A stretch of DNA of 42,019 nt from a virus (IMGVR_UViG_3300045135_001852:1-42019), one strand, 5' to 3'. Counted from the stretch's first letter, positions 18,663 to 41,144 are shown. Notes: generated by a model not told the origin, from the sequence alone. Made by a program: numbers and translations.

Positions 18663-19316
18663 TTATTCCTCCGTTTCCTCAACTTCCTTTGCCTTAACTT
18701 CGCCTTGAATCATCAAATAGTTTAATCTATCTGCCAAGATATTGATTTGCCCGACAATTTCAATGGCCTCATTCGTGGCCGACCTATTATCTTGTAGGGT
18801 GGGTGGTTTAATAAAATAACCTGCGGCGGTGAGTGAAGCGACATCGTTCTTGCTTAGGTGAGTGAGGGGCTTTCCCGACAACGCCTTAGGCATTCTTGGC
18901 TTGAAAGCCTTGAAGTCCAAACCATGCTTCTCAGCAAGAATTTGTTGCTCAAGCATTTCCAACTGTTTGAACATAGCAGAGTGTTTAGGGCAATAGGTTC
19001 CTCTCAATGGTCTTCCTTTTGTTACTCTTTCTAAAGGAATTGGAGGCCTCAAGAAATCCCCCGATTCCCAAAGGTGATGCATTCCACAAACAACGCAACG
19101 GTCTTTGAGATTAAATTTCTTTCCGAACCTAAAGAACAAAAATGATTTCGGTTCAGGCAAAAGAACCTTAATGAGTTCTTTTTCTTTCTTTTTTGGTTTA
19201 ATAGCCATAAACTGGTATTCAACCACTTGTCCTGTTGTTCTTGCTTGTTCAATTGGATTCAACAATGGGTTGAATGCCATTGGTGCGTTCTGTCCTATAA
19301 TTTGTTGTTGATACAT
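18663..19316 (-). CDS. Putative Zn-binding protein (CVVCGMHH...YCPKH)
   Basis: Cys/His ligands and a helical C-terminus; probable start MYQQQ overlaps the upstream stop (TGATG). Confidence 0.65.
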   Translation of the reverse strand: MYQQQIIGQNAPMAFNPLLNPIEQARTTGQVVEYQFMAIKPKKKEKELIKVLLPEPKSFLFFRFGKKFNLKDRCVVCGMHHLWESGDFLRPPIPLERVTKGRPLRGTYCPKHSAMFKQLEMLEQQILAEKHGLDFKAFKPRMPKALSGKPLTHLSKNDVASLTAAGYFIKPPTLQDNRSATNEAIEIVGQINILADRLNYLMIQGEVKAKEVEETEE

Positions 19317-19858
19317 CACATAGTCCCCCATCTATTTTTCTCTTTATCTTCTTTATCGTAGTGTCTCTGTTCAATAGGCTTTACTTTTTTAACCTTTAAA
19401 TTTTGAGTATTCCAGATACAACCTGAATCCATGTCCCATCCATAAAACATATCCATGATGGCTTCTTCATCTCTGCTAACAGAATAAATTGGTTTTACCC
19501 ACGATTTATAATTTAATAATTCTATTCCATCATATGTGTAAGCAACAATATCCCATTTTATTACCACTCTATAAGGGCCAACTTTAAGGCCAAATTTTTC
19601 ATAAAAGTCTTTAGCATCTTCAAAATTTTTGATTTGTAAAATGTTTGATTGGGAAGTGTCCAAATACAAAATATATTTATATGAACGCAACCAACCATAA
19701 TCAACCATATTTCTTCTCATCCACCCACTTCCTAAACTAAACGAATACCATAAGCCTGTGGGTTTCATGCCTTCTTTTTGTCTTTTATTTTCTTTTGTTA
19801 TTTTATCGTTTTTACTAAGAGCAATTCTTTGAAGTGCCTTAATAATATCAAACCACAT
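19316..19858 (-). CDS. Tagged accessory protein (MWFDIIK), possible ADP-ribosyltransferase-like fold
   Basis: N-terminal W-x-x-I-I-K tag; motifs KPTGLWYS, YDGIEL, GWDMDSGCIWN. The fold assignment is tentative. Confidence 0.5.
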   Translation of the reverse strand: MWFDIIKALQRIALSKNDKITKENKRQKEGMKPTGLWYSFSLGSGWMRRNMVDYGWLRSYKYILYLDTSQSNILQIKNFEDAKDFYEKFGLKVGPYRVVIKWDIVAYTYDGIELLNYKSWVKPIYSVSRDEEAIMDMFYGWDMDSGCIWNTQNLKVKKVKPIEQRHYDKEDKEKNRWGTM

Positions 19859-19863
19859 AATAA

Positions 19864-20532
19864 TCAATAATCCTTTATCATTGTGGTGATTCCTCTATAA
19901 ACCATTTCGGGTTCCGACTTTGCTGATACAATATATTTAAAGCAAGGTATTCCTTTATCATTTAACTTTCTCATACCGTATTTGAATGGTTCAAAAATTT
20001 CATGTTTATCAATATCTTGTCCTTCTGCTAATGGATATTTCTTTCCCCAAATATCATATTTATTGGCCCAAATACCTACTGCCATTGGATAATCTGAGTC
20101 TCTTTTCTTTTTACCATTAGACCATGTGTTTGAAATAACTGTATCCACTAAAAATTTCCATGCTAATTGGTGGTCTAAATTTGCTTCACTATCTAAATGT
20201 CGGTGGTCTATCATAAATATTAGATATTTAACACGGCGGTCTTTCATGTCCTTTTCCCATTCTTTCCAATAAATTGCTTCTCCACCAATATCTGCGCTTC
20301 TTACTGTGTGTGAATTTCCATCAATTTTAATGTTTTTTCTTGATGCTCTATGCAAACCAACTGTTCTTTCATTAATTTGCGGCACTTCTCCTCTTGTTCT
20401 TAATTGATGACTAAGCGTTGTTTTGCCAACCATTGTTGCTCCATAAACCCCAAAGTTAATTGCGTGAACTTTTTTGTAAAATCCTATGATTGCTTCACCG
20501 ACTAAAATAGCAAAACCTGTCATTAAGGACAT
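19864..20532 (-). CDS. Ras-superfamily small GTPase, Arf/Sar-like (222 aa)
   Basis: All five G boxes in order: G1 GATMVGKT, G2 RTVG, G3 DIGG, G4 NKYD, G5 SAK. Hydrophobic N-terminal helix; RBS AGGTGG. Confidence 0.9.
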   Translation of the reverse strand: MSLMTGFAILVGEAIIGFYKKVHAINFGVYGATMVGKTTLSHQLRTRGEVPQINERTVGLHRASRKNIKIDGNSHTVRSADIGGEAIYWKEWEKDMKDRRVKYLIFMIDHRHLDSEANLDHQLAWKFLVDTVISNTWSNGKKKRDSDYPMAVGIWANKYDIWGKKYPLAEGQDIDKHEIFEPFKYGMRKLNDKGIPCFKYIVSAKSEPEMVYRGITTMIKDY

Positions 20533-20544
20533 TCATTCAACCAC

Positions 20545-21096
20545 CTAAAAATATTTATTTAACATATGTTCAAAATGTATTTTTGCTTCTTTAAACGACA
20601 CTCTAGCCGAACTCATGATTGCTTCTTCTTCATCATAAGATAATTCATACCTGCCTTCAATTTCTGCTATTAAATTCTCTAGTATTTGTTCTGCTAACTC
20701 TTTAACTCTTGAATCGGGCAAATATTTAAAATCAAAATTATCAGTTGCTATTCCTCTTGGAGTTACTACATCATCCTGTAGGGAAGTTTGGGCGGGCGAA
20801 CCGTATTCGTCATCATATTCTAGTAATTTTTTTTCTTTTGTCATCAAAGCCTGTTTTATCATGGGTTTAGCGACATCTTTAGTTTTTCCTGTATGTGAAC
20901 CTAAAAAGGCATAAACTAATGCTTCTGTCAATTTCGGAGTCCAATATCCTGTATCTTCCTCTCCTTGAGAACCTTGATATAATCTATTAAATTTCCATGA
21001 CTGTTTAGGAAAATTAGAATAGCCAGTATGAGTCAATCTGGGTTTATTTGCATCTGTTTCAATAATATATGGTTTCTTCAAAATATTCCACCACAT
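20545..21096 (-). CDS. Tagged accessory protein (MWWNILK), possible ADP-ribosyltransferase-like domain
   Basis: N-terminal tag; RLYQGS...GYWTPKLTEALVYA resembles the ART strand-1 / Y-x-T...A..YA pattern. Confidence 0.5.
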   Translation of the reverse strand: MWWNILKKPYIIETDANKPRLTHTGYSNFPKQSWKFNRLYQGSQGEEDTGYWTPKLTEALVYAFLGSHTGKTKDVAKPMIKQALMTKEKKLLEYDDEYGSPAQTSLQDDVVTPRGIATDNFDFKYLPDSRVKELAEQILENLIAEIEGRYELSYDEEEAIMSSARVSFKEAKIHFEHMLNKYF

Positions 21097-21097
21097 A

Positions 21098-21316
21098 TCA
21101 ATGCCCCCACCCGTTTAACAAAGTGTCAAACAGGAAACCCATGATGTTAATATCAAAAACACCAAGAATGTTTCCAACAAGGAAACCTGCGAGTCCAGCA
21201 CAAGAACCCCAAAACCATGCTCTCATTTTCAAAAAGAAAATGTCAGCAGAATGCGCTCTTTGTTGATTATAGGCATAATCCGAATCGGAAAAGCCCATTA
21301 AGTCGCCAAACACCAT
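21098..21316 (-). CDS. Small membrane protein (72 aa)
   Basis: Gly-rich hydrophobic segment WFWGSCAGLAGFLVGNILGVF; RBS AGGTGG. Confidence 0.7.
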   Translation of the reverse strand: MVFGDLMGFSDSDYAYNQQRAHSADIFFLKMRAWFWGSCAGLAGFLVGNILGVFDINIMGFLFDTLLNGWGH

Positions 21317-21326
21317 TTAACCACCT

Positions 21327-22777: not shown

Positions 22778-24112
22778 TCACGAAAGGTTGGTAATCTTGC
22801 CTTGACCCTTGAAGTAAGAACAACCCATCTCAGCAATTGTGCGATACAATGCTCTGTTTCCGAGTTGTCCCACACCGAATGGGTTTCCGTTAGAAATACC
22901 GTCTTCAAAGTATTGGGTAGGCTTCATGACAGCGAGCCAAAGATGGTCAGTATCAAGTAGCAACATATCCGAAATGGTTCCCGAATCAGCCGAAGTGCTT
23001 TGCATTTGAGCAACAGGAATCAAAGGAATATCGTAGTAGGTAGCCACACGGAAACCAACTTCTGCACCCTTAACACCACGAACACCGTTCACAGTTGGCA
23101 CAATTTCCTTTCTATCCATAAATCGCTCTTGACTCTGTAAGAGGTCAGAAAGCGTTTGAAGGGTATCATATCCAGTTAGAATGACCTTTGGAGAACCACC
23201 GTTCTGTCGCAATTCACGGAGAGTAGCGTTAAGAATACTCAAAGTGAATGGGCGAGAACCACCCGAAGCGTAACTGTCAGCACCATTAACGACACAATCA
23301 AGGAAAGAAGCATCATCACGGTTTGTTCCGTAAATGTGGTATGCTTCCGAAATGTCGTTGGTAATAGACGAAACAGGGAAGTTATCGCTGTCCATTTGGT
23401 CTAATTCAGCGTTAGACGAAATAATCTTGTAAAGCGAGGTGTAGTTTCGCTCAATATCTGCGGCGGCGTTGGTTTTATCTGCTTGAAGGTATGCTTCAAG
23501 AGGTGCGAGCATCATAAGGTTTTGAGCCTCTGCATGGTGCTTACCCATATCTTCTCGCATTTGCGCTCTAATGTCACCAATTCCATCGTCAATTTGAGCC
23601 ATTTCCATAGCCAATTCGCTGAAATCAAACTGATGAGCGACGGTTTTTGGACTCATAAAGAGCGTTGAGTATTCGGGAGCAATAGCGATTAAGCCATCAC
23701 CCGAAGTTGAAAGTGATGCATTTTCAGGCACACCACCAATATGGTCAAGGCGTGGAGCATCAGTTCCAGCCAAATCCGTTCCCGTTTGGGTGAAAGAGTG
23801 AGTGTTGCCCGTTCCACCAGCAGGTCTCTTTGAAAGGACTCTCCAACCGCTTGAAGTGTATGGTCTCTTTGCCATAACAGAAAGTGCATTCACTTCACGG
23901 TTAAGCATAGACCAAACTTTTTGTCCATAAAGGACATTGTAAAGATTTCCTGCAATTCCAGTTGTTGGGGAGGTTTGGGTTGCGGCATCATGACCACCAT
24001 GAATACCACTAACGGCCCCTGCCGTCTTCAAGAGCATGTTGTTTGCTCCATTGAAGTTTAATCCGTATGTTTGTGCTTCTAAGTCTGCAATAGTGTTAAT
24101 ATATCCTACCAT
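22778..24112 (-). CDS. Major capsid protein, HK97 fold (444 aa)
   Basis: Follows protease/scaffold; size and motif order fit HK97-type capsids (GGVPEN, PKTVAHQFDFSE, GGSPKVILTG, VATYYDIPLIP, MLLLDTDHL); RBS GAGGTGA. Confidence 0.85.
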   Translation of the reverse strand: MVGYINTIADLEAQTYGLNFNGANNMLLKTAGAVSGIHGGHDAATQTSPTTGIAGNLYNVLYGQKVWSMLNREVNALSVMAKRPYTSSGWRVLSKRPAGGTGNTHSFTQTGTDLAGTDAPRLDHIGGVPENASLSTSGDGLIAIAPEYSTLFMSPKTVAHQFDFSELAMEMAQIDDGIGDIRAQMREDMGKHHAEAQNLMMLAPLEAYLQADKTNAAADIERNYTSLYKIISSNAELDQMDSDNFPVSSITNDISEAYHIYGTNRDDASFLDCVVNGADSYASGGSRPFTLSILNATLRELRQNGGSPKVILTGYDTLQTLSDLLQSQERFMDRKEIVPTVNGVRGVKGAEVGFRVATYYDIPLIPVAQMQSTSADSGTISDMLLLDTDHLWLAVMKPTQYFEDGISNGNPFGVGQLGNRALYRTIAEMGCSYFKGQGKITNLS

Positions 24113-24121
24113 GTTATCACC

Positions 24122-25312
24122 TCAAAGGTTTCCTCCGTAAGCCATCTTATGGATTTCATTCCAGTCCATTTCGGCTAATTCATCCATAGATGGGAGTGTA
24201 ATTGTGGCTTCTTCTTGAGCCTTTAGGATTTGCTCCTTTTCGCTGGTCAAGGACTTGCGAAGAGCAGTAAATTCATCCTTAAGAGAAGCAATCTCGGAAG
24301 CCGCATCATATTGCGACTTTGCGAGAACATCTTCTCGGTTGTTCTTTTCAGCCGCAAAGCGGGCCTCAAATTGCTTTTGGAGGTTGTCGTAAGCCAACTT
24401 CTCAAGTTGTTCTTGACGGAAAGCCTCGTAAGCCTTCTCAATGTTACCAACACTCAAGTCAAGAGTTTCTAATTCCGTGTTTTCAAAGGCCTTGACAACA
24501 GGCATATCGCTTGCTCTTGGCTTTCCGTTATCAATAACGATTCGGTCAGCAGGTTCACCAATTTCAACGCCAGCACCATCAAGAGTGGAAACATAGGCCT
24601 TTGCCTCTCTATCCATTTCTTCGGTGTCCATCGCTTCTAATTCATCATCTGCGCTTTCCATCATGTCATCGCCTTTTTCATAATCCAACTTTTCGGACAT
24701 GTCTTCTTCCTCTTTTCGGAGAGTATTGACTTCATTCATCAATGCGTCTAACTCTTCCAATGCTTTTTCCAGTTTGCTCATATTTTTCACCTTTTGGTTT
24801 TCTTGCTTTAAAATGTCAAATTTTGCTTCGGGGTTAATTCCTTTTTCACAAATAGTGACTTCATGTAGTTCAAGTTTGCTAATTTCATTATATTGACCTA
24901 ATTCGGGATGGCTTTTCTTTACTTTATGAATTGCTTGCCCTCCAATACTAAATGACCTTAGCGAACCTTTTCTAATTCCTCTATTGATTTCCTTTGCTTT
25001 TTCAATATCATCTCTTAATTTGATTACCACAAAGAATCCGACATCATCAACTTCTGTTTTCCATAACTTTCCGTTTTTGTCTCGGTATGATTTTACAACT
25101 TCTCCTACTTGAACATTTGAATGATTTGTCATTACATTTCTAAACTTTGGATTCTCCATGTATTTTTCAACTGCTTCGTTTAATGCTTTGAGTGTGATTA
25201 AATCATTTTGTTTATCCACGATTTCAATACTTGCATATCCACCAATCATTAGGTCATCGCTTTTTAGAATCCGAAAATCATGTTGTGTATCTCTCTTGAG
25301 TAGGAGGGACAT
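24122..25312 (-). CDS. Prohead (maturation) protease fused to scaffold domain
   Basis: HK97/U35-type motifs IGGYASIEIVDKQNDLI, catalytic H (TNHS), S (SFSIGG) and LHEVTIC..GINPEA, followed by an acidic coiled-coil scaffold. Confidence 0.9.
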   Translation of the reverse strand: MSLLLKRDTQHDFRILKSDDLMIGGYASIEIVDKQNDLITLKALNEAVEKYMENPKFRNVMTNHSNVQVGEVVKSYRDKNGKLWKTEVDDVGFFVVIKLRDDIEKAKEINRGIRKGSLRSFSIGGQAIHKVKKSHPELGQYNEISKLELHEVTICEKGINPEAKFDILKQENQKVKNMSKLEKALEELDALMNEVNTLRKEEEDMSEKLDYEKGDDMMESADDELEAMDTEEMDREAKAYVSTLDGAGVEIGEPADRIVIDNGKPRASDMPVVKAFENTELETLDLSVGNIEKAYEAFRQEQLEKLAYDNLQKQFEARFAAEKNNREDVLAKSQYDAASEIASLKDEFTALRKSLTSEKEQILKAQEEATITLPSMDELAEMDWNEIHKMAYGGNL

Positions 25313-27890: not shown

Positions 27891-28514
27891 TCAACGACGA
27901 CGATTTATTCTGGCTATGTTTCCACTAATTTTAACGATGAAATTGTCGTTTAATTTTCTACTTAGTCGCATTTCAATATAATTTTCAAGTCTATATTTTA
28001 GGAGAAATTCTGCTCTTTTTACATTCTCTTCATCAACTCTTAGATTTGACCTTTTTGCTCTTAAATATAAATTTGCCACTCTTCTTGAGTCTTCCCACCT
28101 TTCTTTAAGTTCACTTATATCCATTTCCATTTTACCATACAAGTCATCCATCATTCTTGCATCTAAATCACTTGATGTTCCAGCAGAAGTCATTTTATTA
28201 GATAATTTCTCAAAAGACCTATCAAATGCACTATTAATCATATCCATTTGCTGTTTCATTGGGCGCATAGATTTCTTAAACTGCGTTGTTTCACCAGCCA
28301 AACCATATCCCGAATGAGTCCCAGTATTATTCTCAATCTTGGTCTTATCCTTCTCGGCCTTTGGTCTCTTGGTCTTGACCTGCTCCATTCTGTCATCCTT
28401 TTCATCGGGCAAACGGTTTCCTTCCATAGATTCACGAAGTAATTCCTTTGCTTCTCTTGCCTTTTCAATCGTCAATGAAATGACTCTTTCTTCTTTACTT
28501 ACTCTTTCAGGCAT
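27891..28514 (-). CDS. Hypothetical head-module protein (207 aa)
   Basis: Charged helical ORF; AGGTGG RBS; coupled to the upstream gene. Confidence 0.7.
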   Translation of the reverse strand: MPERVSKEERVISLTIEKAREAKELLRESMEGNRLPDEKDDRMEQVKTKRPKAEKDKTKIENNTGTHSGYGLAGETTQFKKSMRPMKQQMDMINSAFDRSFEKLSNKMTSAGTSSDLDARMMDDLYGKMEMDISELKERWEDSRRVANLYLRAKRSNLRVDEENVKRAEFLLKYRLENYIEMRLSRKLNDNFIVKISGNIARINRRR

Positions 28515-28756
28515 TATTGTCCACCTACCTTTTCAACCATTTTATGAATATCCGACCAGTCCATTGAATTGACATCAACCCCTACCGAGGCTCCAATGCT
28601 GTCAATCATAGGAGTAGGAGTTTCAGCAACAACAAAGCCCGACTTCATCAATAAGTTATCCTTATTATATACTGCTCTTTCAAGGGTTTCAATCTTTTCA
28701 GATAGAGCCTTGATAATTTCCAGCATTTCTTGATTGATTGTCTTTTCTTCGCTCAT
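28514..28756 (-). CDS. Small scaffold-like protein (80 aa)
   Basis: Coiled-coil N-terminus; C-terminal MDWSDIHKM matches the scaffold C-terminus MDWNEIHKM. Confidence 0.65.
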   Translation of the reverse strand: MSEEKTINQEMLEIIKALSEKIETLERAVYNKDNLLMKSGFVVAETPTPMIDSIGASVGVDVNSMDWSDIHKMVEKVGGQ

Positions 28757-30985: not shown

Positions 30986-31216
30986 TCAAAATGGAATGTT
31001 TTCTTTTCGGCCCCTTCGCTTAGGAGGAAGCGTCACAACATCGGGAATGTCACGACTTGAAGGTGCTGGCTTTGGTGTAGTATCCATAGGAATACCAGCA
31101 ATATCCAAATTTCTTTCGGGTTTTCTTTGCATAGCGGCGTTTTGGTTCAAAGCCTTAACTTGTGCTAATTCCTTTCTCAACCGCATTTCTTTTTGTTTCA
31201 TGTCTTCTTTCGTCAT
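30986..31216 (-). CDS. Hypothetical basic protein (76 aa)
   Basis: Start overlaps the portal stop (TAATG). Confidence 0.65.
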   Translation of the reverse strand: MTKEDMKQKEMRLRKELAQVKALNQNAAMQRKPERNLDIAGIPMDTTPKPAPSSRDIPDVVTLPPKRRGRKENIPF

Positions 31217-32865
31217 TATGGTATTCTCCTTTCGTTTCTTCTATCCACATTTTGATTTCCAGCATCTCTTGGTAGGCCAGCCATTCGCTTATCTGGCCCT
31301 ACGCTCATTCTGCTTTTATTTCTTGTGGCTGGAGGGTTTTCTTGAGGCTTTGAACCACCGCCTTCTGCAAACTCTCTTTGCATTTGGTCTAAATCTCGCT
31401 GGTCTAAGTTTGAACCTGCGAGAGGGTCATTCTTTGCTGGTTCTTCACCCGTTTCGGGAGAAGGTGCGGCATCAGGTTGAGGTTCAGGCTTTTTGAAAGT
31501 AAAGTTTCCGTCTTCATCCATTTCAACCTCAAAGCCTAAATTCTTTGTTGATGCTGCAATATTAACTTCAATCTCACGCTTACGAAGAACAGCAATTTCA
31601 TCTTCCTCTTCGCTTGGCGGTAGTTTCAAATCCCAATCAGTAATACCAAATTGCTTCGTTAAGAATGGAAAAACATAATTGTTATAGACATTTTGAGCCA
31701 TTTGGACTGCACGATTTGTTACAAGAATCTGCATACCCTCGTTATTCAAACCACCACTTGTAGTGTTGTCAGCCATGAATACCTTGCTAACACCATAGAA
31801 AGCAGAAATTCTGTCTCGTAAATCATCCTTTACTGAAACATAATCCATTTCCTTGAGGCTATCCATGAATTTAATCCACTCAACAGAGCCCTTTCCACCT
31901 TCTGCTTCAATACCCATCACAGGAATAAAATGCGGGTCTGTCTCCATCTTTTCTTTTACAGACCGCCAAAAGGAACGCATTGAATCCATGTTGCGAGTTT
32001 GGACTGCCAATAGTCCTCTCGGCATACGGCTTTTGGTATAGGAAGAATTGACATAATTCTCCATAGCGAGAAGAGTTGTGATGTGATTATAGAGGGTAAT
32101 GATAGGCGATAACCCATAGAGTCGGGAAGGACTATACTTGCTGAAATGAAGCACCTCTCCCTTGATGAAATACTGGTCTTTGCCTCCGACACGATTCACA
32201 TAATGAACAGGGTGCAGGGTGCTTCCACATTCCTCACAGTTTTCATGAGGCTCAATTGAAAGAAAACTTCTATGATTGACACAAGTAAATCCTTTTGTTC
32301 CTCTTTGTCCCAATTCATCAGAATAAATAGCCATAGTAACTGGGTCGCCACGATAAACTTCTTTAATGCGATGCATTCTAATTTTTTGATTCCCGTCAAT
32401 AAAATACTCTTTAACAAGAACAATATAAGCATCATCCATAATGTTGAGGTCATCTTCTAATTCTCTCAAAACATCAATAAATAATTGTTCGGACTTATTT
32501 ACATAGCCTTCAATAAACTTTTCAGCATATTGTAGTTGTTTAACATCGGGTGTTTTCAAGTCTTCGCTTTCACAGCGAGAACATTGTGAAACTGGCCTTT
32601 GGTGTTCCTTTCCACAAGAATTGCAAAGTGCTTCGTATGATTTCTCCCAAACATATCCTCTTCGGAAAATTTCTTGTTTAAGTTGTGTTATACAAGTTCG
32701 GGCAATAACAGAATTTTGAACAATATGATAAATAATTGGAGCAGTCATTAAATTGTTTTGCTGCCTTTCTTGAATACCAATGTTATAAATAGACCTATCT
32801 TCGGGTCTTGGGGTTGTTCTCCTAAATAGATTTGAAAAACTAAAGCGGCGTTTTTGCTCAACCAT
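31216..32865 (-). CDS. Portal protein with two Zn-ribbon insertions (549 aa)
   Basis: Portal motifs DDLNIMDDAYIVL, EVLHF...LYGLSPI, PRGLL, RISAFYGVSKVFM; lies between terminase and protease. Confidence 0.88.
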   Translation of the reverse strand: MVEQKRRFSFSNLFRRTTPRPEDRSIYNIGIQERQQNNLMTAPIIYHIVQNSVIARTCITQLKQEIFRRGYVWEKSYEALCNSCGKEHQRPVSQCSRCESEDLKTPDVKQLQYAEKFIEGYVNKSEQLFIDVLRELEDDLNIMDDAYIVLVKEYFIDGNQKIRMHRIKEVYRGDPVTMAIYSDELGQRGTKGFTCVNHRSFLSIEPHENCEECGSTLHPVHYVNRVGGKDQYFIKGEVLHFSKYSPSRLYGLSPIITLYNHITTLLAMENYVNSSYTKSRMPRGLLAVQTRNMDSMRSFWRSVKEKMETDPHFIPVMGIEAEGGKGSVEWIKFMDSLKEMDYVSVKDDLRDRISAFYGVSKVFMADNTTSGGLNNEGMQILVTNRAVQMAQNVYNNYVFPFLTKQFGITDWDLKLPPSEEEDEIAVLRKREIEVNIAASTKNLGFEVEMDEDGNFTFKKPEPQPDAAPSPETGEEPAKNDPLAGSNLDQRDLDQMQREFAEGGGSKPQENPPATRNKSRMSVGPDKRMAGLPRDAGNQNVDRRNERRIP

Positions 32866-32920: not shown

Positions 32921-33379
32921 TCATTCTTCTTCGGGGTCTTGCGTTCTCAATGGTTGCGGTAGGGTTTGGCGGTAGTATTCAGGACTTCTCCTTTCTCGCA
33001 TTTTTGTATCTCTTTCTCTTCTTTTCTCTTGTCTAATTCTCATTAACTCTTCATCTAATTCTGCATCTTTATCTGCTTCTTCTTGTCTAAAAGAATACAT
33101 TTTCTTATATTCTTCATATGATGGAATCGGCATTTCTAAAAATGTATCCTTTGCATCGGGCTCCATGTTCAAAAGGTAATTATACGCTCTTTCTGAAATA
33201 AAAGGGGTAGGTCTTATGCTATTCCATTCATTAACAAATTCTTGAAAATCAAATCGTTCATATCCCGAAACTCCATATTGTATTTTTTTATTTCTTCCAT
33301 ATTTTTTTCTTTCCAAATTGGCCTTTGCTTGCATCAATTCGGGAGGAATCATTTTATATTTTAGAATATCTTTCCACAT
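32921..33379 (-). CDS. Tagged accessory protein (MWKDILK, 152 aa)
   Basis: Start corrected using the AGGTGA RBS 4 nt upstream; R/E-rich C-terminus. Confidence 0.7.
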   Translation of the reverse strand: MWKDILKYKMIPPELMQAKANLERKKYGRNKKIQYGVSGYERFDFQEFVNEWNSIRPTPFISERAYNYLLNMEPDAKDTFLEMPIPSYEEYKKMYSFRQEEADKDAELDEELMRIRQEKRRERDTKMRERRSPEYYRQTLPQPLRTQDPEEE

Positions 33380-33556: not shown

Positions 33557-34561
33557 TTACCGCCTTCTCTCTCTGTCTAATTCATCCAACCTTCTTGCCC
33601 TTCTCATGGCCTCTGTCGCCCGCTTTGTTCTTTCAATTTCTTCTCTCTTTCTTGCTTCTGCGGCTCTCTTTTGTTCGGCTCTTTCCGAAGCAGATTTTCT
33701 TCCTCGCTTTTGTCGGGCTTGCTTAGGTTGTCTTTGACCTTTTTTTCTTGGAGACTGTCTTGTAGCAACTTGTCTCATTCTTTGTTGCTCTAACTTTTTT
33801 CTTCTTTGCATTTCTGCTTCTTGCTCTTTTTTCTTTTGTGCGGGAGACATCATTCTTTTTCTTCTTCGTTCTCGCACCAGTTCTCTTTTGTATGGATTTG
33901 ACATTCCCGTCATTAATTTTTGATGTATTGCATTTAATTCAATTTCGTCGGTTAATGATTTTAACCAATCCCTATCAATTATTGAAAGATAATTCTCATT
34001 TGGTAAAAGGCTTACAGATTTATTTGACTTTGAGCGCGCCTTAATAAAATCATAATAATTAAAACCTAAATAATGTTCCATAAGAGGAACCAATTGAGCC
34101 ATAATTTTTCTGTTTAATTTAATTCTTGTCTTTCCATATTCAAAAAGCCTTCGGGCTTCCGAGAGAACATACTCACTATATTTACCTGTTTTTTTACCAG
34201 TTACTATTGGTCTTTTCTCTTCAACTATATCTTCCCAATATTCTATATCTCTTTTTTTGTCTAAATAGTTTTTAGCATACGATTTAGCCCACCTTAATAT
34301 AAAAATTCTATCTAAATCATCTTGAGTAAATTCACCATAATATACATCAAGGAAAAAATCTTCATCTTTATATTTCGCAGGAATTTCGCTATTCAATCTT
34401 TTATATAGTCTTATTTCATCGGATAATTTCATAAGCCTATCTTCAAAGCCCTTAGCGTAAGAAGGAACAGGTTTTGCAAATTCATCCCATTTATTTGGTC
34501 TTCTTAATATAGGCGTATTTTCAAAATCAAATCTTTTCTTCTTTAGGGTATCAAACCACAT
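33557..34561 (-). CDS. Tagged accessory protein (MWFDTLK, 334 aa) with very basic R/K/Q-rich C-terminal third
   Basis: N-terminal tag; start overlaps the end of the LAGLIDADG gene. Confidence 0.7.
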   Translation of the reverse strand: MWFDTLKKKRFDFENTPILRRPNKWDEFAKPVPSYAKGFEDRLMKLSDEIRLYKRLNSEIPAKYKDEDFFLDVYYGEFTQDDLDRIFILRWAKSYAKNYLDKKRDIEYWEDIVEEKRPIVTGKKTGKYSEYVLSEARRLFEYGKTRIKLNRKIMAQLVPLMEHYLGFNYYDFIKARSKSNKSVSLLPNENYLSIIDRDWLKSLTDEIELNAIHQKLMTGMSNPYKRELVRERRRKRMMSPAQKKKEQEAEMQRRKKLEQQRMRQVATRQSPRKKGQRQPKQARQKRGRKSASERAEQKRAAEARKREEIERTKRATEAMRRARRLDELDRERRR

Positions 34562-35948: not shown

Positions 35949-37373
35949 TCAAAAATTTAAACCAAGACCACGATAAACTTGCCTCGTTGGTTTGGCCTCC
36001 TCAAAGAGTCCCAAATCGTCTAATAGTATGAAGTTATCCGAGGCTTGGTAAGTGGCCGCATTTGCCAAAGCAAGGCTCATCACCATATCGTCATGCGCCC
36101 CAATACCCTCAAACTTTCCTCGTTCTGTGATGGCAAACATGGATAACTCCTCAATCAATGTGGAGGTAACTCTCCTACTTTCTTCGTTGCCATAAGGGAA
36201 ACTCATCTTTGAGTTTTCTAAGGTCATCTGCAAGTTGAGGATGATTTCTTGTTTCTTCTTTCGGGTAGTGTTGAAGTCGTGAATATTAAGGTCTGCCACT
36301 TGGCGCAACTCTTGAGTGAATGATTTAGCGAAAGTATTCGTTTCAAAAAGAATAACTTCGGGTCTAAACAGTTGTCCAATAATTTTGACCTTTTGTATAT
36401 TTTCTCTAAACTGAACATTCTTTGCTCGGTCAATATACACAATGGATTTGTTTTCATTTTCATCCATCTCAAGAACCGTGATAACATTGTAGTCACCATC
36501 TGTTGAAATAGCAGGGTCCACACCTACAAAATATTTCATGCCCTCCCTGCGATGGGGTTTCAAAACCAAATCCTTATTCTTCGCCGCATCTAAGTATTCG
36601 GGGTTGAATAAAGAAGTCCCTGTTGAGATTGGCACACACATATACTCTCTTGTGAACATCAAAGAACCAACTTCCGCTTTACGGGCCATCAATGCTTCAT
36701 AATTCCAACGCTCAGGCCATAACGGTTCATTGAGAGAATTTAGACAAGGATATGTCCTCACCGTATATGCTGGATTTTCTGCGAGTTGTTGGTAAATATC
36801 CGTGTAAGAAAATGGAGTCCCGATAACACGAAGAGAAGCGGTGTGGTGAAGTGTAGGAATCATGTCACCATAAAACCAATCTGTTACTTTTTGAATACCC
36901 GTCATACTAAACTCTTTCAAAGGGTCGTCAATGATAATTTCTTGAGGGTGCAGACCACGAATCTGTGAGCCAACAGAACGCTCAAGGATTTGATTTCCAT
37001 TGGTGAGGGTAATATTCCCGATAGCCCAACCCCTTGCAGGTTTGAATTTTTTAAGCATCGGATGGGTGAACATTTTATCAATATCTCTCATATGAACTAA
37101 AGTCTGCTTTTGGTTAGAAGAGATGTAAAGCATTTGATATGGGGGTTCTTCAAAGATTAATTTCCATACAACCCATGAATGCATAAATACAGATTTTCCG
37201 TGGTCTCTTGAGCAAATAATTACAGTTCTTTGAGTTTCGTTCATTAAATTATGCCACTCTTGTATGTATGAAGGAAAATCAAAACCAAGAACATTTTGAA
37301 AGAAATACGGAAATGAGTTTTTGGATAACTTCATATCCATTTCATGTTCAAAGTTGAAGGTATCTAATTCCAT
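35949..37373 (-). CDS. terL: Terminase large subunit (474 aa)
   Basis: Walker A SRDHGKS, Walker B IIIDD, motif VIGTP, nuclease GVDPA and HDDMVMSLALA. Confidence 0.95.
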   Translation of the reverse strand: MELDTFNFEHEMDMKLSKNSFPYFFQNVLGFDFPSYIQEWHNLMNETQRTVIICSRDHGKSVFMHSWVVWKLIFEEPPYQMLYISSNQKQTLVHMRDIDKMFTHPMLKKFKPARGWAIGNITLTNGNQILERSVGSQIRGLHPQEIIIDDPLKEFSMTGIQKVTDWFYGDMIPTLHHTASLRVIGTPFSYTDIYQQLAENPAYTVRTYPCLNSLNEPLWPERWNYEALMARKAEVGSLMFTREYMCVPISTGTSLFNPEYLDAAKNKDLVLKPHRREGMKYFVGVDPAISTDGDYNVITVLEMDENENKSIVYIDRAKNVQFRENIQKVKIIGQLFRPEVILFETNTFAKSFTQELRQVADLNIHDFNTTRKKKQEIILNLQMTLENSKMSFPYGNEESRRVTSTLIEELSMFAITERGKFEGIGAHDDMVMSLALANAATYQASDNFILLDDLGLFEEAKPTRQVYRGLGLNF

Positions 37374-37888
37374 TATTCTTTCCTCTCCTTTTTACGCCTA
37401 TATTGTCTAACTGGCCCTTTTTTTCTTTTAGCATACCTTTCTCTTGCTTGCCGATTTATTTTTTCTTTATATTCGGGGTCATCGGCCCGCCTTTCTTTTC
37501 TTTGACGATTTCTTTTTTCTCTAAATTCGGGGTCAGCGTGTGTTTTTTTGTTTCCTTCTAATAATTTTCTTCTAAATTCAGGGTCATTAGCATACCTTTC
37601 CCTTCTCCTTTCTTGACTTCTTTCTTTATATTTTTCCATATAGTTTGAATTTATTTCCTCCAACCTTTCTAAAAAATTTTCATATTGTTCTGCTTCTGCC
37701 AAATTTGTAAGTTTTTCAAATTCATTTTCAGTAATCTCTTCTGTTAATTTACCATCACTAATCGCTCGCATTAAACTTAGAGAGGGAGTTAATTTCTTAG
37801 TATCTGCACTTGGAATACCAAATACCTCCACAAGAAACCTTTGAAAATCACTCGGAAAATTCACCTTTAAAATATCAAACCAATTCAT
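37373..37888 (-). CDS. Tagged accessory protein (MNWFDILK, 171 aa) with three DPE[FY] basic repeats
   Basis: N-terminal tag; repeats NDPEFRRK / ADPEFREK / DDPEYKEK. Confidence 0.7.
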   Translation of the reverse strand: MNWFDILKVNFPSDFQRFLVEVFGIPSADTKKLTPSLSLMRAISDGKLTEEITENEFEKLTNLAEAEQYENFLERLEEINSNYMEKYKERSQERRRERYANDPEFRRKLLEGNKKTHADPEFREKRNRQRKERRADDPEYKEKINRQARERYAKRKKGPVRQYRRKKERKE

Positions 37889-37892: not shown

Positions 37893-38498
37893 TCACCAGT
37901 TTAAACTCTCAAGAAACTTTTTATGTTTTCTTCCATATATAGCAATCGCTTGGTCTGCCCTGTTCGGTAAAAGTTTTCTTTTAAACTTATCCGCTTTTCT
38001 TTGCCTAATCTCTAATCTAAGTATTTTTTCTCTGCTTTCTAAATCGGGGGCTAAGTTATTTACCCATCTAATTAGAGATTTTAATTCCTTAGTATTTGCT
38101 TTTTCTAAATATTTACCTAACCAACTAACAGTATTATAGGAATCTCTATTAAAAGAAGCAGGATGTTTTACTAAATTAACTATCGCTAAATAAAGACTTT
38201 CTGGGAATTGTAATCTATATGCTACTCCTTCAAGTCTTTGTATATTTCTATCTTTACCAAAATCGCTAGGTTGGGTTTTAAAATGTCCAGCATGGCCTCC
38301 TTCATGCATAAGCGTTCTTTTGATAAACTCTGTAATTTCCTTATCGGTTGGTTCTCTCTTTAGTTTCTTTTTAAGATATGCGTAAATAGAGGTAGGGTTC
38401 ACTAAAATCTCATCAAGAGCAGTATCATATTGTCCAAATTTATCGCCTAAATAGAAATCAAAATCCGCATCAGTTTTAAGAATAGAAAACCAACTCAT
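37893..38498 (-). CDS. Tagged zincin-like metallopeptidase (MSWFSILK, 201 aa)
   Basis: HEGGH (HExxH) in RTLMHEGGHAGH, with a downstream Glu (LEGVAY) as a candidate third ligand. Confidence 0.65.
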   Translation of the reverse strand: MSWFSILKTDADFDFYLGDKFGQYDTALDEILVNPTSIYAYLKKKLKREPTDKEITEFIKRTLMHEGGHAGHFKTQPSDFGKDRNIQRLEGVAYRLQFPESLYLAIVNLVKHPASFNRDSYNTVSWLGKYLEKANTKELKSLIRWVNNLAPDLESREKILRLEIRQRKADKFKRKLLPNRADQAIAIYGRKHKKFLESLNW

Positions 38499-38503: not shown

Positions 38504-39046
38504 TCACTCCCACACAAACCAGTCAAGTTGTTTTGTAATTCGCCAATCTTTATACCTTTCATCATTTCTAAAACTGTTTAATACCTCATCAGGAATAACC
38601 TCATGTTCTGCTGGTTGTTCCCCAGTAGCAAATCTTATTGCTCCCATGTCGGTATATCCAGCAATTTTAGGTATGCCTTTTAAGTCACCAAGATATTTTT
38701 CTCTAACAACATTTGTGGGTATTCCTTTAAATTCTCTTGTTCTGTTTCCTCTAATCCCACCAATAAAAGCAAACTTCTTCCCTCCCTTTCCTTGTCTAAT
38801 AGCATAGCCGCCGATTGCCCCAAGAATAGGCTTGCCATTTACTTTCTTGATAACACCATACCAAGTGTCTATGGGGTAGTAACCTAACCCTCTTGAGTCT
38901 CTTGTTTGCATTTGCAGAGTTGGGTTACTTGCATTCCACAACTCAATGACTTCTTTTTCGTCTTTGAATTTAACCAAAACTTGAGATTTTTTACCTAACA
39001 ACTCCACCAAGCGAGGATGGTCTTTGATAATATCCCACCAAGACAT
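38504..39046 (-). CDS. Tagged accessory protein (MSWWDIIK, 180 aa), possibly GNAT-like
   Basis: N-terminal tag; beta-strand pattern WYGVI...ILGAIGGY...FAFIGGIR...EFKGI is loosely GNAT-like. Confidence 0.45.
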   Translation of the reverse strand: MSWWDIIKDHPRLVELLGKKSQVLVKFKDEKEVIELWNASNPTLQMQTRDSRGLGYYPIDTWYGVIKKVNGKPILGAIGGYAIRQGKGGKKFAFIGGIRGNRTREFKGIPTNVVREKYLGDLKGIPKIAGYTDMGAIRFATGEQPAEHEVIPDEVLNSFRNDERYKDWRITKQLDWFVWE

Positions 39047-39050
39047 GCTA

Positions 39051-39284
39051 TCACTTGTTCATGGTATTTCTAAAAATGTTTGCGAATGCTCCTTCAATAT
39101 TTGCAATCTTGCCATCAAACCCTGTGAGTAGTCTGCGAAGTTCAGCCAAATCCAAATCTTCTCCACCAACATATTCATATGCAATTTCTTTCAAATCTGT
39201 CAAAATTTCAATAGTGTTTCCTAAGTCATCAATTAATTTTTGACCATCTTCTTTCAGTCTTTCATCCGATAATTTGCGAACCAT
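39051..39284 (-). CDS. Hypothetical helical protein (77 aa), untagged
   Basis: GGTGA RBS; fills the gap in the cluster. Confidence 0.65.
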   Translation of the reverse strand: MVRKLSDERLKEDGQKLIDDLGNTIEILTDLKEIAYEYVGGEDLDLAELRRLLTGFDGKIANIEGAFANIFRNTMNK

Positions 39285-39288
39285 TTTA

Positions 39289-39744
39289 TCACCACAATTT
39301 TTTACAGGCTAAACAGCGAGGAGTTGTAATGCGCCCTTTGCATTGGTCGCAGTTGTGCCGTGATTTGAAGTTTGCTCTTCGTTTTCGGTTTTTATGGGTT
39401 CCTCCGCCACGATTCTTGCCCTTTCCTTTCCAATTGCCGTAGCCCTTTGCGCCAGCATGAATTTTCTTTCCTTCATGGGTGAGCATCATAATTTTCTTAC
39501 CTGCTCTGTCGGAAGGATAAACACGACCAACTCGCATATCCTTTTTGTCCTTCTTGGAAATAATGTCACCATCTCTATGCTCATAAATTTTATTTTTCTG
39601 CTTGAGGCTTTCCAACGCTTCTTTGATTTCTTTTTCGCTACCAAATTTGGTTAAGTTTTTCATGCCTAATGCTCCGCCTTCCTTTTCAATCTCAGCAAGG
39701 ATTTTAGATTCTAAATCCGATTTTAGTATTGCTTTCCAACTCAT
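39289..39744 (-). CDS. Tagged basic Cys-containing protein (MSWKAILK, 151 aa)
   Basis: Tag, winged-helix-like N-part, then KKIHAGAKGY...RRANFKSRHNC...LW domain. Confidence 0.7.
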   Translation of the reverse strand: MSWKAILKSDLESKILAEIEKEGGALGMKNLTKFGSEKEIKEALESLKQKNKIYEHRDGDIISKKDKKDMRVGRVYPSDRAGKKIMMLTHEGKKIHAGAKGYGNWKGKGKNRGGGTHKNRKRRANFKSRHNCDQCKGRITTPRCLACKKLW

Positions 39745-40130
39745 TGTTCTCCCCTCATTTGGTTTTCTTTTGATGTTTTGTCGTCATCAATTGGGCCACC
39801 TTTCGCCCATGTGTAGCAAGTCCTATCCTTGTGACACTTGAAATGGTGCATCCAACAATACCCTAATTCGCCTTCCATTGGCATACACTTTTCCATGCGA
39901 GGCGAAATATCAAAAGCAACACAGTTACTACACTTTGACTTCTTAGCGACTTCGGGAGTAGTATTCCAATGGTCTGCGGCTCTTACCCAATAATCTTCAT
40001 CTTCTAAATTGAGCGGGCCATATTGGATATGTTCTGCTTTGATAGAAGCATCTCGGTTTTTTGTGTTTAGTTTAAGGTCTTGTGTTGCTCTCGGACAAGC
40101 CAATTCTTTCAATATGATTTCCCAACTCAT
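39741..40130 (-). CDS. Tagged Cys-rich protein (MSWEIILK, 129 aa)
   Basis: Tag; CPRATQD..LNTKNR, YGP, CSNC, GYCWMHHFKC...TCYTW..GGP. Confidence 0.7.
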   Translation of the reverse strand: MSWEIILKELACPRATQDLKLNTKNRDASIKAEHIQYGPLNLEDEDYWVRAADHWNTTPEVAKKSKCSNCVAFDISPRMEKCMPMEGELGYCWMHHFKCHKDRTCYTWAKGGPIDDDKTSKENQMRGEQ

Positions 40131-40372
40131 GCCCCCTTCCTCCTTTTGTAAGTTTTACAAGCGGCACAGGTTGGTCTGCATCTTTGCTTTGTTCCTTTAG
40201 AAGCATCTTTACGACCACAAGGCTTTGTTCCTTTTTTGTCATCTTCGCAAGATTGACAAGAAACCCATCCCTTTTGACCTCCTCCACCTCTTCGTGAAAA
40301 CCATCCGTGAAGTCCCTCTTTCTTTTCTCTTGCGAAGTTATCTCCGCCTTTGAGGACTCCTTTCCAAGACAT
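40127..40372 (-). CDS. Tagged small basic Cys-rich protein (MSWKGVLK, 81 aa)
   Basis: Tag; GLHGWF...WVSC...KPCGRK...CRP. Confidence 0.7.
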   Translation of the reverse strand: MSWKGVLKGGDNFAREKKEGLHGWFSRRGGGGQKGWVSCQSCEDDKKGTKPCGRKDASKGTKQRCRPTCAACKTYKRRKGA

Positions 40373-40379
40373 AACATCA

Positions 40380-40685
40380 TTACTCCAAAAGTTTATTTTC
40401 TCTTTCTTTTAGAACATTTTCTATTTCTCTAATGTGCGAAAAGTATTCTTCGGGGTCTTTGCTTCTCTCTTCAATGAGGGCATTAGTAGCCATATATATT
40501 TCGTCTTTCAATTCGGGAATATCCATCTCCATTTCTAATTTATTCGCTAACTCTTTAATTCTGACTAAGGCAGACTCATAATCACTAACGGCATCTATCA
40601 GTTCTTTTTCTAAATACTTAAATTGTTGAGATAATTTATCATAGGGTTGTTCGTCATATTCTTTTAGAATTGCTTTCCAAGACAT
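40380..40685 (-). CDS. Tagged acidic helical protein (MSWKAILK, 101 aa; start corrected)
   Basis: ATG at 40685 lies 4 nt after the upstream stop (AGTGA RBS-like). Confidence 0.7.
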   Translation of the reverse strand: MSWKAILKEYDEQPYDKLSQQFKYLEKELIDAVSDYESALVRIKELANKLEMEMDIPELKDEIYMATNALIEERSKDPEEYFSHIREIENVLKERENKLLE

Positions 40686-40689
40686 AGTA

Positions 40690-40845
40690 TCACTTCTTCT
40701 TAGATTTGTTTCCCCAATTGGAAGCCCCGACTTTGCGACATTGAACCAAAGCACCCGAAGCATAAGCAGAAGGCCACTTCTTGTAGCGGCTCTTTACCTT
40801 ATGGTAGCAAGCATCCTTTTCCTTCTTGAGAATTTCTTGCCACAA
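40690..40845 (-). CDS. Tagged small basic protein (51 aa, not in ORF track): MWQEILKKEKDACYHKVKSRYKKWPSAYASGALVQCRKVGASNWGNKSKKK
   Basis: Translated by hand; TTG start after GAGGGGA; fills the gap exactly. Confidence 0.75.
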   Translation of the reverse strand: MWQEILKKEKDACYHKVKSRYKKWPSAYASGALVQCRKVGASNWGNKSKKK

Positions 40846-40847
40846 AA

Positions 40848-41144
40848 CTATCCCCTCATAATCTTGCTTGGAAACCTTTTACAATCCTCATACACATTAA
40901 TCATTTGAACCAGTCTTTCTTTGAAACCTTCGGGCAAGTTTGAACTACTTGTTAGGAAATTCATGTGTCGCAAAATTTGCTTGCATCCCGAATACTGAAA
41001 TCTTATTGAGTATTTAGGTTCCAAAGTAGGGTCATTTGTCGCTTCTCCCAAGTCTCTCATAAACTCATCTGCTTCTCTTTTTAATTCGGCACAGCAGAAA
41101 TCCTCAGTATTCATTTCCACCCTTTTCAAAATATCTTGCCACAT
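40848..41144 (-). CDS. Tagged accessory protein (MWQDILK, 98 aa; start corrected)
   Basis: AGGTGA RBS 4 nt before the ATG; CC...C...C pattern. Confidence 0.7.
   Translation of the reverse strand: MWQDILKRVEMNTEDFCCAELKREADEFMRDLGEATNDPTLEPKYSIRFQYSGCKQILRHMNFLTSSSNLPEGFKERLVQMINVYEDCKRFPSKIMRG

What the first reader, a model, noticed from the sequence alone, without database searches (positions are those of the whole stretch)
19316..41144. Thirteen unrelated proteins share one N-terminal peptide tag, M-(S/N)?-W-x-x-[IVT]-[LI]-K: candidate capsid cargo-loading system
Seen: starts at 41144 MWQDILK, 40845 MWQEILK, 40685 MSWKAILK, 40372 MSWKGVLK, 40130 MSWEIILK, 39744 MSWKAILK, 39046 MSWWDIIK, 38498 MSWFSILK, 37888 MNWFDILK, 34561 MWFDTLK, 33379 MWKDILK, 21096 MWWNILK and 19858 MWFDIIK. 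After the Lys the proteins share nothing: an HExxH peptidase, ART-like and GNAT-like candidates, Cys-rich and highly basic domains. The two identical MSWKAILK copies use different codons (AGT vs TCT Ser, ATA vs ATT Ile), and Leu codons vary across the set, so conservation is at peptide level. No core structural gene carries the tag. Established: phage T4 internal proteins use a short N-terminal capsid-targeting sequence removed by the prohead protease. Inference: this is an analogous modular address label that loads exchangeable effectors into the head for injection with the DNA.
Basis: partly seen in the sequence, partly recalled or inferred. Interest (0 to 1): 0.93.

Follow-up and report, generated by a model that had tools for sequence, protein, structure and literature searches.

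The report
Shared cargo tag on magrovirus proteins
Thirteen unrelated genes on the capsid strand of this ocean archaeal virus start with the same 7-8-residue peptide, which resembles the tail of the virus's capsid scaffold and likely loads a fast-changing set of proteins into the virus head, where the head protease would cut it off at its lysine; neither step has been measured.

Summary
Confirmed. The window is the virion module of a magrovirus (host, from the literature: marine Poseidoniales archaea). All 13 tags sit at gene starts; one start is TTG. Eight complete relatives carry 141 tags on the capsid strand; the replication strand gives 2 loose matches. Codons vary, so the conservation is in the peptide.

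Best reading (0.6): a capsid-loading label cut at its Lys by the head protease, working like the T4 capsid-targeting sequence without being one. Evidence: the scaffold ends in a look-alike (MDWxDIHK, 73 of 75). Similar Lys sites are conserved at the protease edges and capsid N-terminus. N-terminal tags end in Lys (413 of 438); C-terminal copies mostly do not (5 of 14) and often have the Lys in front. One cargo domain is 84-88% identical to a cyanophage protein found in S-SM1 virions, and other homologues put Glu where the tag has Lys.

Loading, cutting and injection are unmeasured; the 'effector' labels are weak. The claim that no core gene carries the tag is wrong. This scan reported the same tag on other magrovirus genomes at least eight times; I found it in no paper.

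The parts
40848..41144 (-). tagged gene, MWQDILK, 98 aa, no family
   Evidence: cargo in 0 of 8 relatives
40690..40845 (-). tagged gene, TTG start, WQEILK, 51 aa; basic Cys domain shared with cyanomyovirus T4-GC119 (phrog_727; weak DUF5872)
40380..40685 (-). tagged gene, MSWKAILK, 101 aa, acidic
40127..40372 (-). tagged gene, MSWKGVLK, 81 aa, basic and Cys-rich; weak likeness to another GC119 module (29% over 55 aa, pairwise E 0.006)
39741..40130 (-). tagged gene, MSWEIILK, 129 aa, Cys/His-rich; in 5 of 8 relatives
39289..39744 (-). tagged gene, MSWKAILK, 151 aa, basic; weak DUF5754 match below the curated cut-off; match in 5 of 8 relatives
38504..39046 (-). tagged gene, MSWWDIIK, 180 aa; GNAT-like lead only
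37893..38498 (-). tagged gene, MSWFSILK, 201 aa; carries HEGGH (HExxH); no peptidase family match
37373..37888 (-). tagged gene, MNWFDILK, 171 aa, basic C-terminal half
33557..34561 (-). tagged gene, MWFDTLK, 334 aa, basic tail
32921..33379 (-). tagged gene, MWKDILK, 152 aa
20545..21096 (-). tagged gene, MWWNILK, 183 aa; ADP-ribosyltransferase-like lead only (Atlas 0.87)
19316..19858 (-). tagged gene, MWFDIIK, 180 aa; weakly ART/RES-like fold; residues 1-7 (the tag) lie outside the confident model
24122..25312 (-). prohead protease (Peptidase_S78, residues 22-176) fused to a scaffold; H64 and S122 invariant in 40 of 40 aligned
24146..24169 (-). scaffold C-terminal tag look-alike MDWNEIHK (residues 382-389); W384 and H388 invariant; predicted short terminal helix
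25262..25276 (-). FRILK17, candidate Lys cut site just before the protease domain
24806..24820 (-). FDILK169, candidate Lys cut site at the end of the protease domain; invariant in 40 of 40
24221..24229 (-). ILK364, candidate Lys cut site 20 residues before the scaffold's Trp motif
24026..24034 (-). LLK29 of the major capsid protein, invariant in 45 of 45; candidate propeptide cut site
28514..28756 (-). 80-aa conserved head-module protein with two conserved Lys sites (K16, K38) and a C-terminal MDWSDIHK (28541-28564); likely a small scaffold-like protein
22778..24112 (-). major capsid protein (HK97 type, related to HCTV-1/HVTV-1); inferred docking partner
35949..37373 (-). terminase large subunit (landmark)
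31216..32865 (-). portal protein (landmark)

Best explanation
Thirteen unrelated capsid-strand proteins start with the same M-x-W-x-D-I-L-K peptide, which is likely a capsid-loading label that the virus's head protease is predicted to cut after its Lys. Shown: the peptide is kept at the protein level, marks about a quarter of capsid-strand genes in relatives, and has look-alikes at the C-terminus of the scaffold and of gene 28756. Inferred step 1 (about 0.7): tagged proteins are drawn into the assembling prohead. Inferred step 2 (about 0.45): the W-x-x-I-L face docks where the scaffold's own terminal W-x-x-I-H helix binds, most likely the inner face of the coat. Inferred step 3 (about 0.65): the S78 protease cuts after [ILV][LIMV]K, the same rule that would trim the protease, scaffold and capsid propeptide, and frees the cargo inside the head. 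Inferred step 4 (about 0.45): the freed cargo, a mix of basic DNA-binding-type domains and small enzymes, partly enters the host with the DNA. New cargo likely arises when a gene start (ribosome site plus tag) is duplicated or recombined onto another domain.
For: (1) Distribution: 141 tagged starts on the capsid strand of 8 complete relatives (about 548 called genes) against 2 loose matches on the replication strand (548 called genes). Of 154 tags (window included), 108 lie upstream of terminase, 36 between terminase and portal, 3 between portal and capsid gene, 7 between capsid and tail tube genes, none after. (2) Peptide-level selection: all six Leu codons occur at the Leu position. (3) Portability: 154 cargos fall into 95 clusters; five window cargos are in 0 of 8 relatives. 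(4) Soluble cargo: 1 of 154 has a membrane-type stretch, against 47 of 446 untagged capsid-strand proteins. (5) Scaffold tail [ML]-x-W-x-x-I-H-K in 73 of 75 homologues; the same at the end of gene 28756 in 74 of 81. Precedent: SaPI CpmB binds the 80alpha coat through a copy of the scaffold's C-terminal motif (PMC5644958, passages). (6) Conserved Lys sites at protease K17 and K169, scaffold K274 and K364, capsid K29. (7) Without requiring Lys, the residue after W-x-x-[IV]-[LIV] is Lys in 413 of 438 distinct N-terminal copies but in 5 of 14 C-terminal copies (Arg in 7); 9 of those 14 have a Lys two places before the Trp. The Lys thus falls between label and cargo in both orientations. (8) The 40845 domain is 84-88% identical to a module of cyanomyovirus T4-GC119, listed as detected in S-SM1 virions with 13 counts (PMC3037559 Table S8). 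(9) Among the best 120 longer homologues of that domain, 64 have the W...K motif before it. Of the other 56, 19 of 27 distinct contexts have [ILMVF]-x-E just before the domain (0 of 23 in the W group), and 13 of 44 distinct N-termini are Glu-ended leaders such as MKIRDIVE (0.05 expected). T4 gp21 cuts after L/I-x-E (PMC9026906). (10) In the model of 19858 the confident fold starts right after the tag.
Against: No magrovirus is cultured (PMC10768690), so no virion content or cut has been measured. The GC119 homologue was not detected in Syn9 virions, and it is one domain of 13. A stand-alone copy of the same domain in Roseobacter phage CRP-902 has no leader at all, so it can exist without one. 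Conserved [ILV][LIMV]K columns also occur in terminase, portal, ligase, the GTPase-like protein and the adaptor, and one (K98) lies inside the protease domain: the short pattern alone is weak. The scaffold tail has an invariant His where tags have Leu or Ile. The residue after the Lys is free in tags (K 20%, E 12%, A 11%, N 11%, R 10%) but narrower at core sites (S, A, Q, T). The 14 C-terminal copies include related proteins, so they are fewer than 14 independent events. The Glu-leader pattern was written after seeing the sequences, and those proteins have no genome context. Tags also occur inside proteins (106 distinct hits, many of them probably mis-set starts). Some cargos in relatives reach 600-811 aa, large for passage through a portal. 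The related halovirus HVTV-1 shows no such tag.
Confidence: 0.6

Rival explanations
1. The tag does tether proteins inside the prohead, but as accessory scaffold, core filler or DNA-condensing proteins that are digested or stay behind; they are not delivered effectors.
For: 64 of 154 cargos are net basic. The closest virion-detected homologue is a string of small basic modules. The tag resembles scaffold tails. T4 IPIII affects head assembly (PMC9026906 section 7).
Against: 95 clusters among 154 cargos and rapid turnover fit a conflict role better than a structural one. Some cargos look like enzymes, and tagged homologues carry PF01569 domains.
Confidence: 0.17
2. The tag acts outside the head: a docking motif or degradation signal for a host protein or protease, or for the virus-encoded chaperonin, shared by late proteins.
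For: An amphipathic W-x-x-I-L helix is a generic docking shape (inference). Aoguangvirids encode GroEL/GroES (PMC10768690). Strand bias shows late expression, not location.
Against: One codon-restricted form of the tag gave 100 matches in 185,579 prokaryote genomes, none titled as Poseidoniales and 18 of 100 start-like, against 143 of 152 start-like in viral contigs. The look-alike on the scaffold tail and the Lys placement point to the head. Tail-region genes after the tube gene never carry it.
Confidence: 0.14
3. The shared start is a DNA-level or translation-level cassette (recombination joint or initiation enhancer) and the peptide has no function of its own.
For: Some tagged genes within a genome share upstream DNA: 14 of 1,317 pairs match at 15 or more of 20 bases, against 25 of 11,069 untagged pairs.
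Against: Synonymous codons are spread across the tag. Mean upstream identity is close to background (7.25 against 6.73 of 20). Copies at C-termini and inside proteins cannot aid initiation.
Confidence: 0.05

Closest known systems
Phage T4 capsid targeting sequence (CTS) of IPI, IPII, IPIII, removed by prohead protease gp21 (PMC9026906, passages and section 7)
   Same: Short N-terminal peptide shared by unrelated, poorly conserved, often basic proteins; ends in a hydrophobic-led motif that also occurs in core head proteins; T4 also packs an ADP-ribosyltransferase (Alt).
   Different: Ends in Lys, not L/I-x-Glu; the protease matches Peptidase_S78; 11-25 tagged genes per genome rather than three; also found at C-termini; resembles the scaffold's tail, whereas the T4 CTS targets the core; archaeal host; untested.
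SaPI1 CpmB / phage 80alpha scaffold RIIK motif (PMC5644958, passages)
   Same: A second protein carries a copy of the scaffold's C-terminal motif and so reaches the coat's scaffold site.
   Different: CpmB is a satellite's size-changing scaffold with the motif at its C-terminus; here the virus's own, many, unrelated proteins carry it, mostly at the N-terminus.
phiKZ, 201phi2-1 and SPN3US head ejection proteins with Glu-ended propeptides (PMC9026906, passages)
   Same: Many head proteins processed by one prohead protease at a short motif.
   Different: Glu specificity, and no single short shared leader is described in the passages read.
T4-GC119 of cyanomyoviruses (S-SM1 gp115, S-P4 gp60)
   Same: Holds the 40845 domain at 84-88% identity; listed as detected in S-SM1 virions.
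   Different: One 495-529 aa protein whose modules are separated by Glu-ended stretches; here at least one module is a separate 51-aa gene with its own Lys-ended tag.
Encapsulin cargo-loading peptides (recalled; PMC13669383 passages discuss cargo and scaffold parallels)
   Same: Short peptide at either end of an unrelated cargo, docking inside an HK97-fold shell.
   Different: Cellular compartments, no maturation protease, cargo stays attached.

Membership tests
T4-type capsid targeting sequence | Short (about 10 aa) N-terminal propeptide shared by unrelated proteins | tested here: met
   7-8 aa, N-terminal on 13 window genes and 141 in relatives
T4-type capsid targeting sequence | Ends in L/I-x-Glu, the gp21 site | tested here: not met
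   Ends in Lys in 413 of 438; the protease matches Peptidase_S78. Works like it, is not a member.
T4-type capsid targeting sequence | Carried by variable, non-core proteins | tested here: met
   95 clusters among 154; five window cargos in 0 of 8 relatives
T4-type capsid targeting sequence | Sufficient to package a foreign protein; removed by the prohead protease; cargo ejected | not testable with these tools
   Needs proheads or virions; none cultured
Scaffold-tail mimic (CpmB/80alpha type) | Shares a motif with the scaffold's C-terminus | tested here: met
   [ML]-x-W-x-x-I-H-K in 73 of 75 scaffolds against M-x-W-x-D-I-L-K tags; one position differs (His/Leu)
Scaffold-tail mimic (CpmB/80alpha type) | Binds the coat at the scaffold's site | not testable with these tools
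   Needs a procapsid structure or a binding assay
Magroviruses (Magrovirales) | Halovirus-related capsid protein with portal, prohead protease and terminase | tested here: met
   (24-25% identity to HCTV-1/HVTV-1/HCTV-5, the only 8 matches); PMC5434244 passages
Magroviruses (Magrovirales) | ATP-dependent DNA ligase embedded in the structural module (groups A and B) | tested here: met
   25358-27877, PF01068 E 3.9e-30, between portal and protease
Magroviruses (Magrovirales) | 90-100 kb genome with replication and virion clusters on opposite strands | tested here: met
   Seen in relatives of 91-97 kb; the window itself is a 42-kb fragment without the replication cluster
Magroviruses (Magrovirales) | Poseidoniales host | not tested
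   Taken from the literature
ADP-ribosyltransferase fold (gene 19858) | ART/RES core fold | tested here: inconclusive
   Best Z 5.2, rmsd 4.3, 123 aligned to MbcT; most of the top 50 rows are ART-fold chains but all are under Z 8; Foldseek PDB best E 0.058
GNAT acetyltransferase (gene 39046) | GNAT profile or fold | tested here: inconclusive
   No Pfam or PHROG match; Atlas 0.92 to a cluster with PF00583 on 18% of members, 142 shared features
Zincin peptidase (gene 38498) | HExxH motif in a peptidase fold | tested here: inconclusive
   HEGGH present; no peptidase family match; one homologue besides itself; not folded

The most novel reading that the evidence does not exclude
Magroviruses have turned the coat-binding tail of their own scaffold into a portable, reversible label: placed at either end of any protein with a Lys cut site facing the cargo, it loads about a quarter of the capsid-strand proteome into the head. 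The same cargo domains move between archaeal and bacterial viruses by swapping a Lys-ended leader for a Glu-ended one to suit the local head protease, so ocean viruses would share one pool of injected proteins across domains of life.
Probability: 0.35. Interest if true: 0.85.

Novelty: new variant of a known kind. Interest (0 to 1): 0.62.

Why it matters
If right, an eight-residue pattern assigns a location (inside the virion) to 11-25 'hypothetical' genes in each genome of an abundant, uncultured group of ocean archaeal viruses, and gives a ready list of candidate first-strike and counter-defence proteins against Poseidoniales. It would be a capsid-targeting system in an archaeal virus, with a testable origin in the scaffold tail. 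It can be tested without culturing the virus, by expressing capsid, protease/scaffold and a tagged reporter together. The concept itself is known from T4, which caps the surprise.

Tried and rejected
Complex prediction, capsid protein (alignment) with a 32-residue tagged N-terminus (alignment of 52 tags): no answer, score 0.00 in both runs, controls not folded; no evidence either way. Fold of the protease/scaffold: residues 1-178 under pLDDT 50, so domain borders rest on Pfam and no fold search was run; only the long scaffold helix (288-369) and terminal helices were usable. Sequence search of solved structures with the protease: 0 matches. Foldseek PDB with the 19858 model: none at E<=0.001; the viral library gave uncharacterised proteins, several from giant viruses. 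The C-terminal part of 39744 had no match among annotated phages at E 1e-3. 38498 has one homologue besides itself. HVTV-1: no N-terminal tag in the 50 kb read, and no match to one DNA form of the tag in the whole HVTV-1 or S-SM1 record. No measured cut site for a close archaeal relative was found; Lys cleavage by the HK97 protease is recalled and was not confirmed in what I read. A first, loose count of hydrophobic-x-Glu within 16 residues (53 of 120) was set aside as too permissive and replaced by the fixed-position count. Secretion or membrane-anchor signal rejected: no hydrophobic stretch follows the tag. G003 and G007 were given handles but not fetched, so 8 of 10 genomes were counted.


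Full report
Observation. All 13 tagged starts are at the stated minus-strand coordinates. Twelve are ATG; 40845 is TTG, and its close homologues read MWQEILK. Every start lies within 11 nt of the previous gene's stop. Drawing N-termini from the composition of the 44 called capsid-strand proteins 20,000 times gave a mean of 0.003 matches and at most 1. The parts after the Lys do not match each other (BLASTP, E<0.05).

What the window is. A 42,019-base viral record, complete as held. It encodes terminase (35949-37373), portal (31216-32865), an ATP-dependent ligase (25358-27877), a Peptidase_S78 protease fused to a scaffold (24122-25312), a capsid protein (22778-24112), tail tube and tape measure. 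The capsid protein's only matches among 50,697 annotated phage records are 8 halovirus records at 24-25%. That relationship and a ligase inside the structural module are described for magroviruses of groups A and B (PMC5434244, passages). Terminase relatives at 83-96% identity are many in IMG/VR. The host is taken from the literature, not tested.

Spread. I read 8 of 10 relatives given handles, 91-97 kb. With my own simple gene caller each strand had 548 genes in total. A separate scan found 141 tagged starts on the capsid strand (11-25 per genome) and 2 loose matches on the replication strand. With the window's 13, 108 lie upstream of terminase, 36 between terminase and portal, 3 between portal and capsid gene, 7 between capsid and tube genes, and none later. 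Consensus M-[SNTK]-W-[KQEF]-[DNE]-[IV]-[LI]-K; all six Leu codons are used. The 154 cargos form 95 clusters, median 121 aa, up to 811 aa; 1 has a membrane-type stretch against 47 of 446 untagged capsid-strand proteins (orthologues repeat across genomes, so these are not independent). 64 of 154 are net basic and 22 net acidic. HVTV-1 shows none.

Link to the head machinery. The scaffold ends in [ML]-x-W-x-x-I-H-K in 73 of 75 homologues and the 80-aa gene 28756 in 74 of 81. This lead came from earlier notes of the scan and I tested it here. W384 and H388 are invariant in 40 aligned sequences, and the model puts a short helix at 384-392 after a long helix (moderate confidence). In phage 80alpha the scaffold's last 16 residues bind the coat, and the satellite protein CpmB uses a copy of that motif (PMC5644958, passages). 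Separately, [ILV][LIMV]K is conserved just before the protease domain (K17), at its end (FDILK169), in the scaffold (K274, K364), in gene 28756 (K16, K38) and at capsid LLK29, invariant in 45 of 45. Against this: such columns also occur in terminase, portal, ligase, the GTPase-like protein and the adaptor, and K98 lies inside the protease domain; the scaffold tail has His where tags have Leu.

Two tests on the Lys. First, without requiring Lys, the residue after W-x-x-[IV]-[LIV] is Lys in 413 of 438 distinct N-terminal copies and in 5 of 14 C-terminal copies, where Arg is found in 7 and 9 of 14 have a Lys two places before the Trp (Fisher p 4e-8, overstated because the C-terminal set holds related proteins). 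The Lys therefore tends to lie between label and cargo whichever end the label is on, as a release site would. Second, the 40845 domain occurs in 365 annotated phage records, nearly all cyanophages. In S-SM1 and S-P4 it is a module of T4-GC119, whose modules follow Glu-ended stretches. Supplementary Table 8 of PMC3037559 lists GC119 as 'Y, 13' in the first proteomics column, absent in the second and not detected in the third. The column heads were lost in the text; I assign them to S-SM1, S-PM2 and Syn9 from the main text and gene lengths. Among the best 120 of 7,930 longer homologues, 64 have the W...K motif before the domain. Of the other 56, 19 of 27 distinct contexts have [ILMVF]-x-E at fixed positions before it (0 of 23 in the W group), and 13 of 44 distinct N-termini are Glu-ended leaders against 0.05 expected (pattern chosen after viewing, source viruses unknown). 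T4 gp21 cuts after L/I-x-E (PMC9026906). A leaderless stand-alone copy exists in Roseobacter phage CRP-902.

Cargo. None of the 13 passes a curated Pfam cut-off. 19858 folds confidently from residue 8 on, with the tag below pLDDT 50; all 17 family members found carry the tag; the best solved match is MbcT at Z 5.2, rmsd 4.3, 123 aligned, which is weak, though most top rows are ART-fold chains. 21096 (ART-PolyVal, 0.87) and 39046 (GNAT, 0.92) are Atlas leads. 38498 has HEGGH and nothing more. 'Effectors' is therefore an inference; many cargos look like basic internal head proteins, as T4's IP proteins are.

Mechanism. Shown: a portable, peptide-level motif confined to head-side capsid-strand genes, with look-alikes on scaffold tails. 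Inferred: loading into the prohead (0.7), docking at the scaffold-tail site (0.45), cutting after Lys by the S78 protease (0.65), ejection of part of the cargo (0.45); overall 0.6 for a cleavable loading label. Rivals: non-ejected core or DNA-condensing proteins (0.17); docking or degradation outside the head (0.14); DNA or translation cassette (0.05), although shared upstream DNA in a few gene pairs may show how new tagged genes arise.

Known systems and novelty. It works like the T4 capsid targeting sequence but fails its defining Glu site, so it is not filed as a member. Searches: 'magrovirus', capsid targeting terms, Poseidoniales with motif, leader and cargo terms; none listed a paper on this tag. 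'Motif' occurs 0 times in PMC5434244 and PMC10160649 and twice, for HTH, in PMC11706807 (passages only, their supplements not read and could bear on this). PMC10768690 was read whole; PMC9026906 as passages and section 7; PMC3037559 as passages plus search hits and part 3 of 4 of one supplement; PMC5644958, PMC12749128 and PMC13669383 as passages. Zhou et al. 2023 and Nishimura et al. 2017 were not read. The library lacks most subscription papers. The scan itself reported this tag in eight listed findings on other genomes; these are AI notes, not independent evidence. Verdict: real, family-wide, new variant of a known kind; interest 0.62.

Noticed in passing
window 18013-21716 (-): Conserved block between capsid and head-tail genes: two small membrane-type proteins (21716, 21316), a P-loop GTPase-like protein (20532; MMR_HSR1 E 0.007, under cut-off) and genes 19331 and 18660. 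Possibly an egress or lysis module; tagged genes are inserted within it.
   Followed up: no
window 25358-27877 (-): The 839-aa DNA ligase inside the head module has conserved hydrophobic-led Lys sites (K584, K621) beyond its catalytic part; it may itself be packaged and trimmed.
   Followed up: partly
window 28753-29118 (-): Conserved head-module gene starting MTWD[YF]Y...F[IV]LK15 in 81 aligned sequences: Trp at tag position, Lys site seven residues later than in tags; perhaps a stretched variant.
   Followed up: partly
P0084, P0087, P0089, P0091, P0101, P0117 and others: A Glu-ended N-terminal leader, M-[KR]-hydrophobic-x-x-hydrophobic-x-E (such as MKIRDIVE, MRYREILE), on 13 of 44 distinct N-termini of unassigned homologues; same length and spacing as the magrovirus tag. 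Source viruses unknown.
   Followed up: partly
P0037, P0045, P0061: Tagged proteins of 318-337 aa in which the 40845 domain is fused to a PF01569 domain (two also PF22778).
   Followed up: no
L013:1537, L021:527, L050:2622, L080:4061 and 4327: Different cargos share the upstream sequence TGCAGGAGAA[AG]TTACA before the tag, suggesting duplication of a gene start followed by cargo replacement.
   Followed up: partly
window 12176-12747 (-): Tail chaperone gene (12747-12376) followed by a 63-aa TTG-start frame; possibly a programmed frameshift pair, as annotated for HVTV-1 genes 129/130.
   Followed up: no
window 34551-35807 (-): 418-aa protein after terminase with a nuclease-like C-terminal part (phrog_5046, E 4e-5; AAFIDSDG resembles LAGLIDADG, label recalled); magroviruses are reported to carry such an insert.
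   Followed up: no
L204:3980-4150 and 5280-5537 (Roseobacter phage CRP-902): Stand-alone small basic genes related to 40845 and to the end of 39744, with no leader.
   Followed up: partly
L088 (capsid gene at 1009): The capsid reading frame is preceded in frame by WQEVIK directly before its Met; chance or a tagged capsid variant.
   Followed up: no
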